Source: Alloascoidea hylecoeti
Taxonomy: Eukaryota
Direction of reading: 5' to 3'
DNA length: 64,000 bases
NCBI GenBank assembly: GCA_001600815.1
Contig: BCKZ01000006.1
Span: 248,001-312,000, forward strand
Within the stretch, counting starts at the first letter, position 1, and each line of letters starts with the position of its first letter. The notes beneath the pieces were generated by a model. It searched no databases, was not told the origin of the DNA, and worked only from the letters and a program-made list of their open reading frames with translations. Positions 7,390 through 15,100 of this stretch are shown in pieces. A program made the position numbers and the translations under genes.

Positions 7390-9027
7390 TTAAAACCTAA
7401 ACTTACTATTCTCGTCTCTTTGGGCCCTGTTCTTGGACTCGCTCTCTATCAACGTATTCAGATTGCGTCGGAAATCCTCCTTTTCACCCTCTTCTACGCC
7501 TGTAGCTGTACCAGGCAGTTGGTATCCATGGTCCGTGGCCATAAATCCATCCCCAACCGATTTCCTTTCTTCTTTCAACACCTGATAAAGCTTTTTATTT
7601 GGCCGTGATTTCTCGATGCTATCACTGGCTTTACGTTTCCGAATATCGAAATCCAGAACTTCTTCCTCTATCTTGTCATTAATATCCGTAGTCTGTACTG
7701 GAATATCCTCATCTTCCACTTCTTCTTCTACCTCATCGGCTTCTTCCTCTACTTCGGATTCTGATTCAGACTCAGATTCTGATTCTGAGACACCTTCTTC
7801 AGCTTCACCCCATAATATTCGTATTTCGGGCTTCCCCATATTGGTAATCACTTCTTGTTTCACTAAACCAAACACATCCCCATATAAAGGAACATTATTC
7901 TCATCAACTGGTGGTCTACCATATCCACCAGGTGCAAACCCCCATTGTGCTCCCTTTGGAATGGGTGCATTTAATCCGGGTATCTTTAATCCAGGATAGC
8001 TAGGCGGTGGTCCAACTCTTTGCATTTGTAAAAGCCATGGTGGTGGTGCATTTGGTGGTATATTCAAAGCATTTTTTAATTTTGTTGATAAATACCCGGG
8101 TTTAAATTCACTAAAATCAACTTCATTTTCCTTTTGTTCATAATATAATTCTCCAAATTTATATAATTTTGGTTTAGTTTGAAATTTAAAAAATGCATCT
8201 CTTAATTTACCATAATCAATATCTAATTGATTCATTTTAACTTGAACTCTTTCTCTCATTTGTTGTTTTAAAGTTTTCCCATCATTAATATCTCCATTAC
8301 CAGTATTTCTCATTTCCATTATACCTGTATCTTCAATAAATTTAGGTAATTTAAAAGGTGGTTTTTCAATTCCTCTTTTTGATGATAAATAATCTCTTTT
8401 TAATTGCCAATGAGAAGGTATAAAAACACAATTTTTTAAATTTTTTAAATAAATTAGTAATTCAGGATTTGGTGAATCAACATCATACCATTCAACTAAT
8501 TCTGGTTTTTTTGATAATGTTTTTAAATGTGATAATGATATTTTATTTAATTTCTTTAATTTTTTTTTAGAAAGTTTAGGGGTTTCATTATCTTTATTAT
8601 CATCTTTTTTATCATCTTCATCTTCATCTTCTTCAACTTCATCATCACTATAGAAAACATCTCCTTTTGAATTATCAATATCATTTATATCTTCTTCTTC
8701 TTCAACAATTTGAAATTTTCGTATTATATTTTGAAATTCTAAATATTTTGGATCATTAAATATTAATTCATTGATATCACTACCATCTATTAATAATGAA
8801 CCTTTTTGAACTGCTTCACGATCTTTATCATTTAATGATCTATCGTATTGTAAATTATCATCATATTCATTTATATTTTCTTCTTTTATTGTTTCATGAC
8901 TAGATATTACTTCGTCATTATCTTTTTTAACTTCAACTTCAACTTCAGATACTTGTTTTTCGTGCTTTTTTTGTTTAGCTCTTTGTCGCCTTCTTTGATT
9001 CTTGGTTTGTTTACCTTGTGACATCAT
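7390..9027 (-). CDS. CUS1: U2 snRNP SF3b subunit 2 (SAP145/Cus1)
   Basis: PELVEWYDVD, PSHWQLKRDYLSSKRGIEKPPFKLP, IDYGKLRDAFFKFQTKP and the PSP domain PPPWLLQMQRVGPPPSYPGLKIPG; C-terminal KFRF. Confidence 0.95.
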   Translation of the reverse strand: MMSQGKQTKNQRRRQRAKQKKHEKQVSEVEVEVKKDNDEVISSHETIKEENINEYDDNLQYDRSLNDKDREAVQKGSLLIDGSDINELIFNDPKYLEFQNIIRKFQIVEEEEDINDIDNSKGDVFYSDDEVEEDEDEDDKKDDNKDNETPKLSKKKLKKLNKISLSHLKTLSKKPELVEWYDVDSPNPELLIYLKNLKNCVFIPSHWQLKRDYLSSKRGIEKPPFKLPKFIEDTGIMEMRNTGNGDINDGKTLKQQMRERVQVKMNQLDIDYGKLRDAFFKFQTKPKLYKFGELYYEQKENEVDFSEFKPGYLSTKLKNALNIPPNAPPPWLLQMQRVGPPPSYPGLKIPGLNAPIPKGAQWGFAPGGYGRPPVDENNVPLYGDVFGLVKQEVITNMGKPEIRILWGEAEEGVSESESESESESEVEEEADEVEEEVEDEDIPVQTTDINDKIEEEVLDFDIRKRKASDSIEKSRPNKKLYQVLKEERKSVGDGFMATDHGYQLPGTATGVEEGEKEDFRRNLNTLIESESKNRAQRDENSKFRF

Positions 9028-9140
9028 TTATTTGTTAAATGTAAACACATAAACAATAATTACGTTGTTGAGTACTAATGAATTTTTTGAATTAAGTTGT
9101 TCAAATAGTATGTGAGGGAGGTTTAGAAATTTACATTGGT

Positions 9141-9148
9141 TTACCCGG
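9141..9148 (+). promoter_or_regulatory. Reb1-type site TTACCCGG upstream of CUS1
   Basis: Exact Reb1 consensus 114 bp upstream of the ATG; the same motif recurs upstream of three other genes in the window. Confidence 0.55.
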
Positions 9149-10340
9149 ATTACATTTAATTCAATCCTGAATGTATCAAGCTTAAGATTTATAACTTCAA
9201 TCAATCAATATTTATAGGCCTAGCATGATAATCAGAGATAATTATAACACCCATTTAGTGTCTAAAGCCAATAGCATAATAATCGTGATCTCATATACTC
9301 TCCAGCTATAATTATATAATGATATCTAAATCCCACCAGTGGTTTCTGTGTTTTTCCTATAAAAATTTATACATATGCAATGAGTTTGTAGTCATTTTAT
9401 ATTTTATTTCATGCCTAGTTATTAAAAAGCTTAAAGTAATTGCTTTTTAACTCAATAAATGAATAAATAAAATGAAAAATGAAAAATGAAAAATAATAAA
9501 AAATAAGAGAAACAAATCATTAATATTAAAAAACTATAGAAATGCATTAATATTAATACAGTATTTATATGTCATGCATTAACTTTACAGTACGACCTTT
9601 AAAAAAATTTTTTATAGTTAACGTTAAAGGTTGACATCGTCTAATTTCAATGAAAATTTAAATTTTCCATTGTCACGTGGGATCCACTAACCGTTATCAT
9701 TGTAACTCTGCAGCTGAATCCGACGTTAATCTTGACAATTCATACATGTATTAAAATAAAAGTTGGTTCATGAATACGAAAGAAATATTACCAATCTTCT
9801 CATCTCAACCTTTCCAGATTTTATATCCAACTTACGGGGAAAGGAAAGTTCGAGAAATCCATGTTTTAAAATAATTATAATCTCTCCATGGATGTCTGGG
9901 TGTTTATATATCTACCCCGGAGAAAACCCTGAAAACCTTCCGGGGTATATGTTTGCTATATATATATTGATCATTAATGTATTTTTTTAAGGACAAACAG
10001 TAAAATTAGATTATGTGATCATGATCATGTAGGCAAAAATTATGTAGAATAATCCACGCCGCCACGGTATTTGTGGCCGTGATTGTTAATGATTGTTAGA
10101 GTGTTGTATTAACTGCACATGATACGGGTACTAGTTTTTACCAAATCAACCACCAACATCACCAGAAGATATGAGCTTACTAAATATTTTGAATAGTTAT
10201 ACTGTTTCTTCTAATAGATGTTTTCGATAATTTTCCATGTGTTCCTTTGTTTTCAATTCAAAGTTAGTAAGTCTCTTCTTCATTCTTGCCCCGTTTTTTA
10301 CGGGACATATTCATCTCTTACATAGGCATTGTATCATTAA

Positions 10341-11229
10341 CTACTGAGTTTTCTCTGAGTGATTTGACTNNNNNNNNNNNNNNNNNNNNNNNNNNNNNNN
10401 NNNNNNNNNNNNNNNNNNNNNNNNNNNNNNNNNNNNNNNNNNNNNNNNNNNNNNNNNNNNNNNNNNNNNNNNNNNNNNNNNNNNNNNNNNNNNNNNNNNN
10501 NNNNNNNNNNNNNNNNNNNNNNNNNNNNNNNNNNNNNNNNNNNNNNNNNNNNNNNNNNNNNNNNNNNNNNNNNNNNNNNNNNNNNNNNNNNNNNNNNNNN
10601 NNNNNNNNNNNNNNNNNNNNNNNNNNNNNNNNNNNNNNNNNNNNNNNNNNNNNNNNNNNNNNNNNNNNNNNNNNNNNNNNNNNNNNNNNNNNNNNNNNNN
10701 NNNNNNNNNNNNNNNNNNNNNNNNNNNNNNNNNNNNNNNNNNNNNNNNNNNNNNNNNNNNNNNNNNNNNNNNNNNNNNNNNNNNNNNNNNNNNNNNNNNN
10801 NNNNNNNNNNNNNNNNNNNNNNNNNNNNNNNNNNNNNNNNNNNNNNNNNNNNNNNNNNNNNNNNNNNNNNNNNNNNNNNNNNNNNNNNNNNNNNNNNNNN
10901 NNNNNNNNNNNNNNNNNNNNNNNNNNNNNNNNNNNNNNNNNNNNNNNNNNNNNNNNNNNNNNNNNNNNNNNNNNNNNNNNNNNNNNNNNNNNNNNNNNNN
11001 NNNNNNNNNNNNNNNNNNNNNNNNNNNNNNNNNNCAATCTATCTTTGAGAGTTGAAGGGGGCAACCCGGCGTCCATGGCAATCTGTCTGATTGACGTATT
11101 GGGCTCAACACGACTTCTTGCCATGGCTTACAGTATCTTCGCTTCTTTGTCACTTAATGCAAGTGCTGTGTGAGACCTTTTGGATTCGGTCATTGTTGGC
11201 ACTGTGAGAGATTTTTTGGATTTGGCCAT
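10341..11229 (-). pseudogene. Copy 1 of a pogo/Fot1 (CENP-B-like) HTH gene; in-frame TAA at 11128-11130, middle hidden by the assembly gap
   Basis: MAKSKKSLTVPTMTESKRSHTALALSDKEAKIL*AMARSRVEPNTSIRQIAMDAGLPPSTLKDRL...[gap]...KSNHSEKTQ*. Both gap flanks match copy 2 in inverted orientation (129/129 and 110/111 nt). Confidence 0.75.
10370..11034. other. Assembly gap (665 N), probably the collapsed identical middle of the inverted gene pair
   Basis: Flanks correspond to 12163 and 12735 of copy 2, which are separated by 571 nt. Inserting 571 nt gives copy 1 the same 795-nt length as copy 2. Confidence 0.85.
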
Positions 11230-11968
11230 TGCTGGTGGACAGTAGTGGTTGTGACAAAGAAAAAGAGGGATGATCGGGTAGTCTGATGTGTTTCGTAGCA
11301 ATGGGCCGGGCTTTTTACATTTGATCTCAGATTTTAATTCCCACTTCAACTTGCCTATTTTTGTTACGCAGGTAGTAAATGAAGACTCATAGAATCATTG
11401 TATTGATAGACAAACTGATATGAAAAGGTCATTCACTGATAAATAACTAGAAAAATAATGAAGAAGAGATTTCTTTACATTTAGGTTGGGGAAGGTCAAT
11501 TTTTCTTTACTCCAATTAAGTACTCCAATTAAGTAGTTACGGATGTATTATATGTATTATGTATTCTGGTAAATACTATCAATGAAAATTCTCATCTTTG
11601 CATGTTAAAATCTTGTACTAAAGAATGCTTTATATTCTACAAATAATTATATTAAAAACAACAAATTCGGTAGCTAAATAGCAAATATAAAAGAGAGCGA
11701 AATCAACCTCTGGCTCTATGTATATACCCCTTTCTTTTTACATCTTTATTTTGCTTACTATGCTACAGAATACTTATTTCTAGAACTATTAGTATTATTT
11801 ACACGTATTCAGCTAGCTTCACCCGCGAAAATTAACGTGGTATTTGCTCTACTGTTCTCAAAATAATTTAATGTTGTAATTTGAAGTTAGTAAGGGTTGT
11901 CCTATTATAACCGGCTACTCCAAAGAAATTATTTGCCCCTTAATATTTCACCGCTACAACAACCAAAA

Positions 11969-12763
11969 ATGGCAAAACCCAAAAATCTACTAAGAGCACT
12001 AACAATAGCCAAGCCCAAAAGGTCTCCCAAAGCACTTGCATCAATTGACAAGGAAGCGAAGATACTGAAAGCCATGGCAAGAAGTCGTGTTGAGCCCAAT
12101 ACGTCAATCAGACAGATTGCCATGGACGCCGGGTTGCCCCCTTCAACTCTCAAAGATAGATTGAATGGTGCACAATCCAGATCAGCAGTTAAAGAAGTAT
12201 ACCAAACTTTGACAAATGCTGAAGAGAATCGGCTCACTGATATGCTACTTTACTATGCAAAGATGGATACGGCGGCCGACAAAGAACAGCTGTATTGCTT
12301 AGTGGATGAGTTGGTGGACCGAAGATATTCGGGGCATGATGAACACCCTGTATCCAACACCAAAAAACCAACCAAGAATGCCATTACGGGCCATTATGTG
12401 AGTACTAATTGGGTGAATGGCTTTCGGAAAAGGAATCCAAGGATTTCTTTCCAGAAAATAAAAGGATCAGACGCATATCGGTTTCTTAGTAGTAATAAAG
12501 ATACACCACCACCAAAAGACCACTTGCTTAAGCTTGATGAAGAATTCGAAAGAGGGTTTTCCAATGAAGATGAAGTAAGAGGATTTTATCGAAAACTAGA
12601 CCTTTTGACGATGAAAATGGTTAAAACCCCACAGTATGCGGAGACCCATGCCAGATGTCTAATCCTTATGGAGCAAGCAACAATCAGTTCAATTGCTACC
12701 ATTAAACACCCGGAGCCCTTTGGAAACAATGGCAAGTCAAATCACTCAGAGAAAACTCAGTAG
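11969..12763 (+). CDS. Copy 2: pogo/Fot1 transposase-derived DNA-binding protein (psq-type HTH + Tc5/CENP-B HTH), 264 aa, no DDE domain
   Basis: SIRQIAMDAGLPPSTLKDRLNG...QTLTNAEENRLTDMLLYYAKMD...VSTNWVNGFRKRNPRI fits the bipartite N-terminus of fungal Fot1/pogo transposases. ATG in aaaaATG context at 11969; stops before any catalytic domain. Confidence 0.8.
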   Translation: MAKPKNLLRALTIAKPKRSPKALASIDKEAKILKAMARSRVEPNTSIRQIAMDAGLPPSTLKDRLNGAQSRSAVKEVYQTLTNAEENRLTDMLLYYAKMDTAADKEQLYCLVDELVDRRYSGHDEHPVSNTKKPTKNAITGHYVSTNWVNGFRKRNPRISFQKIKGSDAYRFLSSNKDTPPPKDHLLKLDEEFERGFSNEDEVRGFYRKLDLLTMKMVKTPQYAETHARCLILMEQATISSIATIKHPEPFGNNGKSNHSEKTQ

Positions 12764-13803
12764 TTAATGATACAATGCCTATGTAAGAGATGAATATGTC
12801 CCGTAAAAAACGGGGCAAGAATGAAGAAGAGACTTACTAACTTTGAATTGAAAACAAAGGAACGCGTAGGAATTTTCAGGAGAATATGTTAGGAAAACAT
12901 CTAGTGAATTTAATTTTCTGGTGATGTTGGTGGTTTTATTAAGTTGTTGTGGTCGATTCGGTTGTTGTGGTACTACCATCATATTTGATTTATATCCACA
13001 TTAATCTACGCTGATTCTACATTAATAAACATACGAAAATATTGGCAAATTAAATGAGAAAAAAAATATCCAATTGGTAAAGAAGGGATATAATTCGGGA
13101 TCAAATTAAATCTAATAGTTTTAAGTAGATTGCCCCAGCATATTATACTTCTATGAAACAGACAGATCGAAGATATAGGTTGTGATTGTAAATATGTTTT
13201 GTGTATATCAACATCTGAGATATATATATATTAAATCTATTGAAAGTAAATTTATATTGGTTAATTGTGTAAACTAAAGAAAAGAAATCAAAATCGAAGA
13301 GAAGCAATCAATTTCATAATAATCAATCCTATATCTTGAGTAATCCTCAAAATCTCAGCATTAATGATTCACTATTTAGTTAGAGACCAGATCACGTAGC
13401 ATGATCCTGATCGTGTGATCCCGGATCCGCCCTTCCTATATAACCTCGTTTCACCATATAATCATGAAAATATATCCGATCACCCTATAGCACTAATACA
13501 GATGACTGGAACTCTCTAAGGTCCAGATCTCACTCCGTAGGTTCCGTAGTTATAACATTGAGCCGTGCATGGTGCGTGTATTATCATTGAGATTAGGAAA
13601 CATTGACTAGTTATACTACCTAATATTTTTTTGATTTTTAGGATTGTTAATTAATAAATATGCTCAGAATTTTTTAGACTTTTTCACAACCCCCAATTCA
13701 TCCAGAGATTCCACACAAGCAATTATTTATGAAGTATATAATAGGATCCATGCAGGGACCTGCAGGTACAAATCGAAAATCCAACTGTTTAAAATTAAAA
13801 TAA

Positions 13804-15100
13804 AGTTTTCCGCTTAACATTCGCCATATACTGGAGGAAGTTTTCGTCACCTTAGTATGTGAATATTAGGCATATTGGCAAATATATGTTGGTATTTAGG
13901 GACACGTTATTTATTAATATGGTCTCATTGTTTTTAGTCGCCTATGTGTCATATATTAGATTTGTGTTTGAGTCTGAATTAACCATTATGTGGAATGAAT
14001 AGTTCGCTAGAGTGATATATTATATTCGTCATTCAGTTAGATATACATATATAAGCCTTATGTTGATATATATATTCACCGCATTGTGAGTCATATATTT
14101 ATGTTTATGGTGACATATATTTCGTTACACAGGGCCAATATATTTTGTTGTATAAGCCTATGTCTAACAAGTATTTCGTATTTAGTTTTGAATAATTCTT
14201 CATGTGGAAGGCCTCATTGTTAGGTATTGGGACAATATTCGTCATTCAAAAGTTCAAAAATACGTATATTTCAACATTGATTATAAGGTCTCGTACAGCT
14301 ATAATAGTTTAATATTTAAAATAGACCTCTATTTTGGCGATTATCTACGAATATCCCATAATACTCCTTGATATCCGTTATCACTTCTCTGCAGTTGTAT
14401 TAATTCCTCCTCCTTTTTATCCACTTATTATATATATGACAACCATTGCAGGATGTCCCATAATATAATAATTTCCTGATCACATCCTTCACAAAATAGA
14501 GGAAATCCGATCTAATGGTGCCGCTGTATCTTCAACAACTTTTGGTTGTCCTTAAAATCTTTTTGACACCGCATTCTTTTTATAACACCTTTCTTCATTT
14601 ATTGCAAGCTACTTGTAGCTTTGACAACTTTACATTAAACACGATTGACCCATAACCAGATTTCAAAACATTTTAAGGATTGAATGACCAAATTATATCC
14701 CAGTAAATACGAATTAATATTTTCCTTTTAACTAATAATCTACCTTCCATACGACGAACTATTCAAAACGAAATACCTGCTAGACAAGCAATGAAATATA
14801 TTGAGCCCGTGTAACGACATATATGCCGCGATAACCACGAATGAATGACCCACAATACGGTGAATATATCTAACTTAATGACGAATATAATATATCATTT
14901 AAGCGAACTATCCACTCCACATAATGGTGAATTCAGACTCACTCACATATCGAGTATATGACATATGTGAAACTAAAAATGATGAAACAAAATTACGAAA
15001 TAATGTCACCCCAGCTATCAACATGTATTTTCCACGATGCCAAATAAACGCATGCTAGGATGACTAAATCCTCCTCCAATATGGCGAATTTGGAAAAACT
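13804..15100. repeat. Degenerate long inverted repeat (arms ~13804-14260 and ~14670-15100, ~410-bp spacer); foldback / non-autonomous TIR element-like
   Basis: The reverse complement of the right arm aligns along the left arm. Best block 13970-14045 vs 14940-14865 has 7 mismatches in 76 nt; the rest is more diverged with indels. Confidence 0.85.

What the first reader, a model, noticed from the sequence alone, without database searches (positions are those of the whole stretch)
10150..12935. Head-to-head pair of catalytically dead pogo/CENP-B-like genes, old but homogenised
Seen: two divergently oriented copies ~740 bp apart. Their first ~85 coding nt and outer flanks are clearly diverged (MAKSKKSLTVPT vs MAKPKNLLRALT; only patches such as ttctggtgatgttggtggtt match downstream). 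The visible body is identical apart from one base, up to 100 nt past the stop codon. Copy 2 stops after 264 aa with a bipartite HTH and a novel C-terminus, no DDE domain, and I see no TIR or TSD. Known: pogo-family DNA-binding domains were independently domesticated as CENP-B, fission-yeast Abp1/Cbh1/Cbh2 and budding-yeast Pdc2. Inference: this is an old inverted duplication kept uniform by gene conversion or flip-flop recombination. It could be a new domesticated DNA-binding factor or transposon repressor with an invertible promoter segment between the arms.
Basis: partly seen in the sequence, partly recalled or inferred. Interest (0 to 1): 0.72.

Follow-up and report, generated by a model that had tools for sequence, protein, structure and literature searches.

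The report
Cutter-less transposase genes kept by yeast
A budding yeast has kept, more than once, shortened copies of a jumping gene's enzyme that lost the DNA-cutting middle but kept the DNA-gripping front and the tail; this window holds one intact copy facing a nearly identical but broken twin, and the intact one most likely acts as a DNA-binding brake on its parent transposon or as a new host regulator.

Summary
The inverted pair is real, not a mis-assembly, and a 795-nt body has been homogenised between old duplicates. Three first-reader points fail. The 'one base' difference is a stop at codon 34 of copy 1. The 'novel' C-terminus is the parent transposase's post-DDE tail, joined in frame after deletion of the catalytic domain. 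TIR remnants are present. Copy 2 belongs to a family in this genome: 4 of 102 matches are intact over nearly the whole length, all DDE-less, with three different in-frame junctions. A fifth such gene arose separately from a sister transposon lineage (AU p=1.8e-6). Intact genes are under purifying selection (terminal branches dN/dS 0.27; copy 2 0.30, p=4e-4); three relics are not distinguishable from neutral (0.80). So this is a young Fot-type domestication, like Drosophila CAG in build and the KP repressor in likely action. The spacer is no promoter switch: each promoter and the stop travel with their own 5' end. Expression, DNA target and function are untested. The scan had not noted this sequence before but noted other transposon-derived genes in this genome.

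The parts
11969..12763 (+). Copy 2: intact 264-aa ORF. Two helical DNA-binding modules (about aa 17-157), an in-frame DDE deletion junction at about aa 178/179, and a three-helix post-DDE tail (about aa 179-250)
   Evidence: branch dN/dS 0.30
12500..12505 (+). Junction where the parent's catalytic DDE region was deleted in frame; same junction as paralog C27a, different from C27b and C7 (position uncertain by a few nt)
   Evidence: DNA alignments with relics
11130..11229 (-). Copy 1 diverged 5' coding end (33 codons, then stop)
   Evidence: 22 differences from copy 2 in 100 nt
11128..11130 (-). Nonsense codon TAA at codon 34 of copy 1; next in-frame ATG at 11124 (codon 36)
   Evidence: same letters in 4 of 4 runs
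10241..11129 (-). Copy 1 body, homogenised with copy 2 (12069-12863); 10370-11034 is an assembly gap of 665 N
12069..12863 (+). Homogenised tract, 795 nt. One variant site (2-nt insertion after 12725 with a substitution at 12734) appears in 3 of 4 runs, including one of two runs of the same sample; probably the difference between the two copies
   Evidence: assignment to copy 1 is inference
11230..11968 (.). Unique spacer holding both upstream regions; 11393-11570 is host flank homologous to the upstream region of paralog C27a and oriented with copy 1
11290..11319 (-). 5' TIR remnant of copy 1 (outer end apparently lost)
   Evidence: rank 1 of 126,552 positions; outer loss read from alignments
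11887..11916 (+). 5' TIR remnant of copy 2
   Evidence: rank 2 of 126,552
12956..12985 (-). Degenerate 3' TIR remnant of copy 2 (weak)
   Evidence: rank 25 of 126,552
10137..10240 (-).
13819..15089 (.). Separate old non-coding inverted repeat (arms 13819-14239 and 14716-15089, 71% alike); its left arm and part of its core also lie downstream of paralog C27a, marking a shared segmental duplication

Best explanation
Copy 2 is a working host-kept gene made from a Fot-type (pogo superfamily) transposon by an in-frame deletion of the catalytic DDE region. It keeps the two-part DNA-binding head and the helical tail. SHOWN: origin, deletion, purifying selection after the deletion, repeated origin in this genome. 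The unit was copied with host flank to another contig (C27) and duplicated locally in inverted orientation; recent gene conversion has made the two bodies nearly identical, and copy 1 carries a stop. INFERRED mechanism: the protein binds the TIRs of its parent family without cutting, and so blocks or poisons transposition, as the KP protein does for P elements. Selection acted through host fitness while the parent family was still active. I put 0.8 on 'selected protein' and about 0.5 on the repressor mechanism in particular.
For: Relics carry residues 1-178, then a DDE region, then residues 179-256. Copy 2 and C27a share one junction, so their divergence follows the deletion, and their dN/dS is 0.37 (dS 0.39, p=1.3e-5, 214 codons; tail alone 0.17). 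Branch model: intact-gene terminal branches 0.27 (p=1.6e-16 against 1), three relic branches 0.80 (p=0.36), copy 2 branch 0.30 (p=4e-4). Relics at dS 0.04-0.11 hold 2, 4 and 1 stops in 214 codons; copy 2 at dS 0.25 holds none, and 0 of 2000 neutral simulations stayed open. Three different junctions are all in frame. A fifth gene of the same build comes from another TIR-bearing lineage; one clade is rejected, p-AU 1.8e-6. Relic branches are shorter than the gene branches (dS 0.04-0.11 vs 0.17-0.72), so the parent family kept moving after the genes arose. The best fold match is the CENP-B DNA-binding domain, 1hlv_A, Z 6.6, 113 aligned, rmsd 12.0. KP precedent: PMC4938643 passages.
Against: No expression, binding or repression data. 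No intact parent transposase was found: none of 12 own-genome matches to a DDE-side piece lies in a frame longer than 236 aa, so a repressor has no visible target today (collapsed repeats could hide one). dN/dS 0.3-0.4 is weak constraint, and copy 1 has tolerated a stop. No orthologue outside this organism: 3 hits among 419 candidates, all matching the own-genome paralogs. The paralogs are mosaic (copy 2 shares its junction with C27a but its last residues with C27b), so a junction could have spread by conversion after divergence as full transposases. The branch tests used one fixed topology that was 3.6-4.9 log-likelihood units worse than the two alternatives, and only 3 relics. KP keeps only the transposase's front; a role for the tail here is not shown. 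The fold Z-score is in the range that the tool calls common.
Confidence: 0.5

Rival explanations
1. The proteins are host transcription or chromatin factors (CAG-, CENP-B- or Abp1-like) that use TIR-like sites scattered by about 100 relics as binding sites; transposon repression is not, or no longer, their job.
For: Selection persists although no intact parent is seen. The oldest members (C7, dS 0.72, dN/dS 0.14; C6:937k) show no TIR. CAG is a DDE-deleted pogo gene kept in insects (PMC4231638). Abp1/Cbh1/Cbh2 silence retrotransposons (bioRxiv 2022.12.06.519325).
Against: Lineage-restricted, fast-evolving, and duplicated and lost; no added host domain. A tight TIR pattern had 9 matches against 6 for the control, so well-kept sites are few.
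Confidence: 0.3
2. Ordinary non-autonomous deletion derivatives with no protein function. The low dN/dS dates from the time as full transposases, and open frames survive by chance or conversion.
For: TIR remnants flank them. Internal deletions are common in this family: relic C3 and a third C27 copy carry other deletions and are broken. 35 of 44 Drosophila pogo copies are internally deleted (PMC4231638). Copy 1 has a stop.
Against: Shared junction plus dN/dS 0.37; copy 2's own branch 0.30; 0 of 2000 neutral survivals at dS 0.25; three in-frame junctions out of three among the intact genes.
Confidence: 0.12
3. The inverted pair is kept because of its shape: a read-through transcript folds into a hairpin with a stem of about 795 bp and feeds RNAi against the family, or the two inverted repeats in this 6.5-kb gene-poor interval mark a regional centromere.
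For: The genome has an intact Piwi-domain ORF (983-aa frame). Inverted-repeat centromeres with orientation polymorphism exist in Komagataella phaffii (PMC5010909). A second inverted repeat lies 1 kb away.
Against: Neither copy's own mRNA spans both arms. Relics are only about 70-74% identical to the stem, poor siRNA targets. Conversion between close inverted repeats needs no function. The C27 paralogs are in tandem, not inverted.
Confidence: 0.08

Closest known systems
Drosophila CAG (PMC4231638, abstract and passages read)
   Same: Pogo-derived host gene with the two-part DNA-binding domain, DDE lost by internal deletion.
   Different: CAG is derived from a pogo-type transposase and has relatives across insects. 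These genes derive from a Fot-type fungal lineage, are young, form a family in one genome, arose at least twice, and still sit among parent relics with TIR remnants.
KP repressor of the Drosophila P element (PMC4938643, passages read)
   Same: Internally deleted DNA transposon that encodes a short non-catalytic protein; proposed to be favoured by host selection.
   Different: Other superfamily (P). KP is a mobile, recent element that keeps only the first 199 transposase residues; these genes keep the tail in frame, have decayed TIRs and have diverged to dS 0.2-0.7. Repression is shown for KP, only inferred here.
CENP-B and fission-yeast Abp1/Cbh1/Cbh2, Dipodascaceae Cbt7 (bioRxiv 10.1101/2022.12.06.519325, passages read)
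   Same: Pogo-superfamily origin; predicted head matches CENP-B(1-129) best.
   Different: They keep a full, usually degenerate, DDE domain and derive from pogoR or Lemi families; centromere or LTR binding is shown for them and untested here.
Fot/Fot-like family of the pogo superfamily (PMC7386202, passages read)
   Same: HTH_psq plus HTH_Tnp_Tc5 type head in relatives, DD35D spacing in one sister relic, TIRs next to TA.
   Different: No catalytic domain; TIRs decayed; copied with host flank rather than by transposition in at least the window/C27a case.

Membership tests
Fot/Fot-like pogo transposons (origin) | N-terminal HTH_psq and/or HTH_Tnp_Tc5 DNA-binding motifs | tested here: inconclusive
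   Copy 2 itself has no such Pfam hit. 10 of 25 aligned members hit HTH_Tnp_Tc5 and 8 of 25 HTH_psq; best fold match CENP-B head, Z 6.6.
Fot/Fot-like pogo transposons (origin) | DD35D catalytic domain in the parent | tested here: met
   Parent-type relics hit DDE_1 over the cut-off. 35 residues counted by hand between the last two Asp in relic C7:148k, a sister lineage; not countable in the nearest relics, which are broken there.
Fot/Fot-like pogo transposons (as an active element) | Intact catalytic domain in the element itself | tested here: not met
   Deleted in frame; no DDE remnant in window 9-16 kb.
Fot/Fot-like pogo transposons (as an active element) | Matching TIR pair with target-site duplication | tested here: not met
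   5' remnants rank 1 and 2, copy 2's 3' remnant rank 25, none found for copy 1's 3' end. Paralog C27b still has a recognisable pair next to TA.
Domesticated transposase gene | Open frame under purifying selection after loss of mobility or catalysis | tested here: met
Domesticated transposase gene | No flanking TIR/TSD (working rule in PMC7386202 methods) | tested here: not met
   TIR remnants upstream of both window copies; by that rule they would still be filed as transposon copies.
Domesticated transposase gene | Orthologue at the same locus in other species | not testable with these tools
   No related genomes are held; protein searches found no orthologue.
Domesticated transposase gene | Expression | not testable with these tools
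   No RNA run was available to lay.
CENP-B/Abp1 family | Retained DDE-like domain | tested here: not met
CENP-B/Abp1 family | Binding to centromere or LTR DNA | not testable with these tools
   needs ChIP
KP-type repressor | Internally deleted element encoding the DNA-binding part without catalysis | tested here: met
KP-type repressor | Binds parent element and lowers transposition | not testable with these tools
   needs binding and transposition assays
Invertible promoter switch | Inversion changes which gene a promoter drives | tested here: not met
   Both promoters, both diverged 5' coding ends and the stop lie inside the unique segment 11130-12068 between the identical arms; inversion swaps 3' ends only.
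Invertible promoter switch | Both orientations present in cells | not testable with these tools
   No contig spans the 795-nt arms.

The most novel reading that the evidence does not exclude
A budding yeast repeatedly turns invading Fot/pogo transposases into 'head plus tail, no cutter' proteins, one set per invading lineage, as a protein-based defence against DNA transposons. At least two independent origins are shown here, and two to four more DDE-less HTH genes in the genome are candidates. The stages from TIR-flanked copy to TIR-less gene to pseudogene can be read side by side in one genome.
Probability: 0.3. Interest if true: 0.72.

Novelty: new variant of a known kind. Interest (0 to 1): 0.47.

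Why it matters
Domestication of pogo transposases is well known but usually seen long after the fact. Here parent relics, three deletion junctions, decaying TIRs, selected genes and a dying duplicate coexist in one genome, with an internal neutral control. If the proteins bind their parent's TIRs, this is a KP-like repressor system in a budding yeast that arose more than once, and it tests directly the idea that repression is the first step of transposase domestication. The kept tail also points to a function for the little-studied post-DDE region. The inverted arrangement itself is ordinary.

Tried and rejected
Mis-assembly: rejected. Promoter switch: rejected on geometry. Pfam on copy 2: no hit over cut-off. 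Foldseek against PDB: no match at E<=0.001, CENP-B at rank 44. Profile search of solved structures: best E 0.0011 (LCoR), CENP-B 1hlv E 0.026, weak. No known fold singled out for the tail (the tail was not folded alone). Homodimer prediction of the tail (aa 176-253): no verdict, score 0.01. No RNA holder listed. Searches for longer relatives: none at E<=0.001 among 2406 and 8000 candidates, weak evidence. The TIR matrix (7 training ends, anchored by a motif) scored the ends of the C7 gene, two relic 5' ends and copy 1's 3' end below zero, so it misses true ends. A tight TIR pattern was barely above its control (9 vs 6). One clade for copy 2, C27a, C27b and C7 was not rejected (p-AU 0.06), so a single origin of these four with later trimming stays possible. 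The AU groups were named after the first tree was seen; that tree left out 3 of 21 relics as too short. Host flank left of copy 1 (9100-10100) gave no match to C27, so the order of events at the inversion is not settled. Literature searches found no description of DDE-deleted Fot genes in a budding yeast; the library lacks most subscription papers and no supplements were read.
Full report
Setting. The window is G000:C6:248001-312000 of a 24.8-Mb genome in 136 contigs. The long ORFs either side of the finding end at 9027 and 15506; they look like ordinary yeast housekeeping genes (recalled, not searched). The 6.5-kb interval between them holds two inverted repeats.

The pair. Copy 1 starts at 11229 (-), copy 2 at 11969 (+). 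They differ at 22 of the first 100 coding nt and at 0 of the next 95; the last 129 nt before the outer flanks are identical. The middle of copy 1 is a 665-N gap. Contigs of four public DNA runs (at most 3 samples, all marked as possible sources) show a unique 999-nt contig over the spacer with no differences in 4 of 4 runs, flank contigs that stop 30 nt inside the repeat, and the body at about twice flank depth in 3 of 4. So two near-identical bodies exist. One variant (2-nt insertion after 12725 with a substitution at 12734) is shown by 3 of 4 runs, and the two runs of one sample disagree, which fits a difference between the copies (inference). It would change only the last 11 or so residues (read by hand). 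Old 5' ends and flanks around a nearly identical 795-nt core mean recent conversion between old duplicates. The single difference at coding nt 100 makes codon 34 of copy 1 a stop. A restart at codon 36 would lose most of the first predicted helix (aa 20-41), so copy 1 is most likely a pseudogene.

What copy 2 is. The own genome gives 53 DNA matches and 102 protein matches among 136 candidates, most with stops. Relics match residues 1-178, then carry a DDE region, then match residues 179-256. Copy 2 is therefore a transposase with its catalytic middle removed in frame, and its C-terminus is the parent's tail. Related elements have clear TIRs: 47 bp next to TA on C7, about 190 bp on C18 and C19. 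A matrix built from 7 ends outside the window ranks the positions upstream of copy 1 and copy 2 first and second of 126,552. One sister relic has DD35D spacing, typical of Fot (PMC7386202, passages). Distant hits are fungal and animal pogo-like proteins; 10 of 25 aligned members carry HTH_Tnp_Tc5. The model (mean pLDDT 81) matches CENP-B(1-129) best, at Z 6.6, a modest score.

A family. Four of the 102 matches are open from about residue 11 or earlier to 253 or later: copy 2, C27a (69%), C27b (65%) and C7 (55%). All lack the DDE region. Junctions differ: copy 2 and C27a share one, C27b and C7 have others, all in frame, and the copy 2 and C7 junctions cannot be derived from each other. A 323-aa gene at about C6:937.6 kb has the same head-plus-tail build, but its closest relic is the 47-bp-TIR element (50% identity over 111 aa; tail 36-45%); holding it in one clade with the other four is rejected (p-AU 1.8e-6), while one clade for those four is not (0.06). 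No DDE remnant lies in the fetched stretches around the window copies or the C7, C6:937k, C6:1044k and C13 genes; the C27 hits belong to other relics. Outside this organism no close relative was found.

Selection. Over 214 codons, pairwise dN/dS is 0.37 (copy 2-C27a), 0.37, 0.39 and 0.15-0.24 against C7 under F3x4, all with p<=1.4e-5; head and tail are each below 1. On a 7-sequence tree, terminal branches of the intact genes give 0.27 (p=1.6e-16), the three relics 0.80 (p=0.36) and copy 2 alone 0.30 (p=4e-4). The relics, at dS 0.04-0.11, hold 7 stops in all; copy 2, at dS 0.25, holds none, and 0 of 2000 neutral simulations stayed open (10 of 2000 at dS 0.17). Limits: one topology, slightly worse than the two alternatives; 3 relics of about 100; mosaic paralogs; copy 2's branch is shared with copy 1 through conversion. 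Eukaryotic transposases act in trans (established knowledge), so a copy without a cutter gains nothing by its own frame; selection after the deletion must come through the host.

History of the locus. Copy 1's upstream region matches that of C27a over about 430 nt, beyond the TIR (z=12.5). Copy 2's downstream side shares with C27a the left arm and part of the core of a rare non-coding inverted repeat. The unit was thus duplicated with host flank. In C27a the long upstream and long downstream flanks belong to one gene; here the long upstream flank goes with copy 1 and the long downstream flank with copy 2. This suggests that the spacer was inverted once relative to C27a, at the birth of the duplication or by a later crossover (inference). 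Inverted repeats in yeasts do recombine and give orientation polymorphism (PMC5010909, passages). But the promoters, the diverged 5' ends and the stop all lie inside the invertible part, so an inversion cannot switch a gene on or off.

Mechanism. Most likely the protein binds its parent's TIRs without cutting and so represses transposition, as KP does (PMC4938643, passages). The relics are younger than the genes, so an active target existed during their history; none is visible now, which would fit weak constraint and the loss of copy 1. The main rival is a host regulator like CAG, a pogo gene that also lost its DDE by internal deletion (PMC4231638, abstract and passages). Binding, expression and any role of the tail are untested.

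Verdict. Real feature, partly misdescribed. A young, repeated, DDE-deleted Fot-type domestication: a new variant of a known kind. PMC10799480 (passages) reports many transposon-derived genes in budding yeasts and names defence against transposons as an open test. Earlier notes of this scan list other transposon-derived genes in this genome and none on this sequence. Interest 0.47.

Noticed in passing
window 13819-15089: Second inverted repeat, arms of about 400 nt at 71% identity, no long ORF; left arm and part of the core recur on C27, an 87-nt core piece on C11. Looks like an old long-TIR non-autonomous element.
   Followed up: partly
L054:3583-4554 (G000:C6, about 937.6 kb): Intact 323-aa DDE-less gene with a low-complexity linker in place of the DDE region; a 337-aa form with 14 more linker residues in frame is in the protein collection (P0004).
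   Followed up: partly
L055:3688-4386, L062:3252-3980, L080, L083: Further intact ORFs (232, 242, 464-aa frame, 273-aa frame) with a pogo-type DNA-binding head and no DDE; selection not tested.
   Followed up: partly
L069-L071, L073, L082: Long open frames with DDE_1 or HTH_Tnp_Tc5 matches; C18:420980 and C15:104891 are paralogs with Asn in place of the second catalytic Asp; C4:41357 resembles Pdc2 (name recalled, not searched).
   Followed up: no
L061 and L063: Two 2.2-kb pogo-like elements, 89% alike, with TIRs of about 190 bp and broken frames.
   Followed up: partly
G000:C6:146302-147270: Piwi domain in a 983-aa open frame: this yeast may have RNAi.
   Followed up: no
L051:2500-3200 (C27): Third, broken family copy near C27a and C27b with another internal deletion.
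   Followed up: partly
P0002, P0003: Each differs by one residue from the own-genome translation of C27b and C7, so other alleles or assemblies exist.
   Followed up: no
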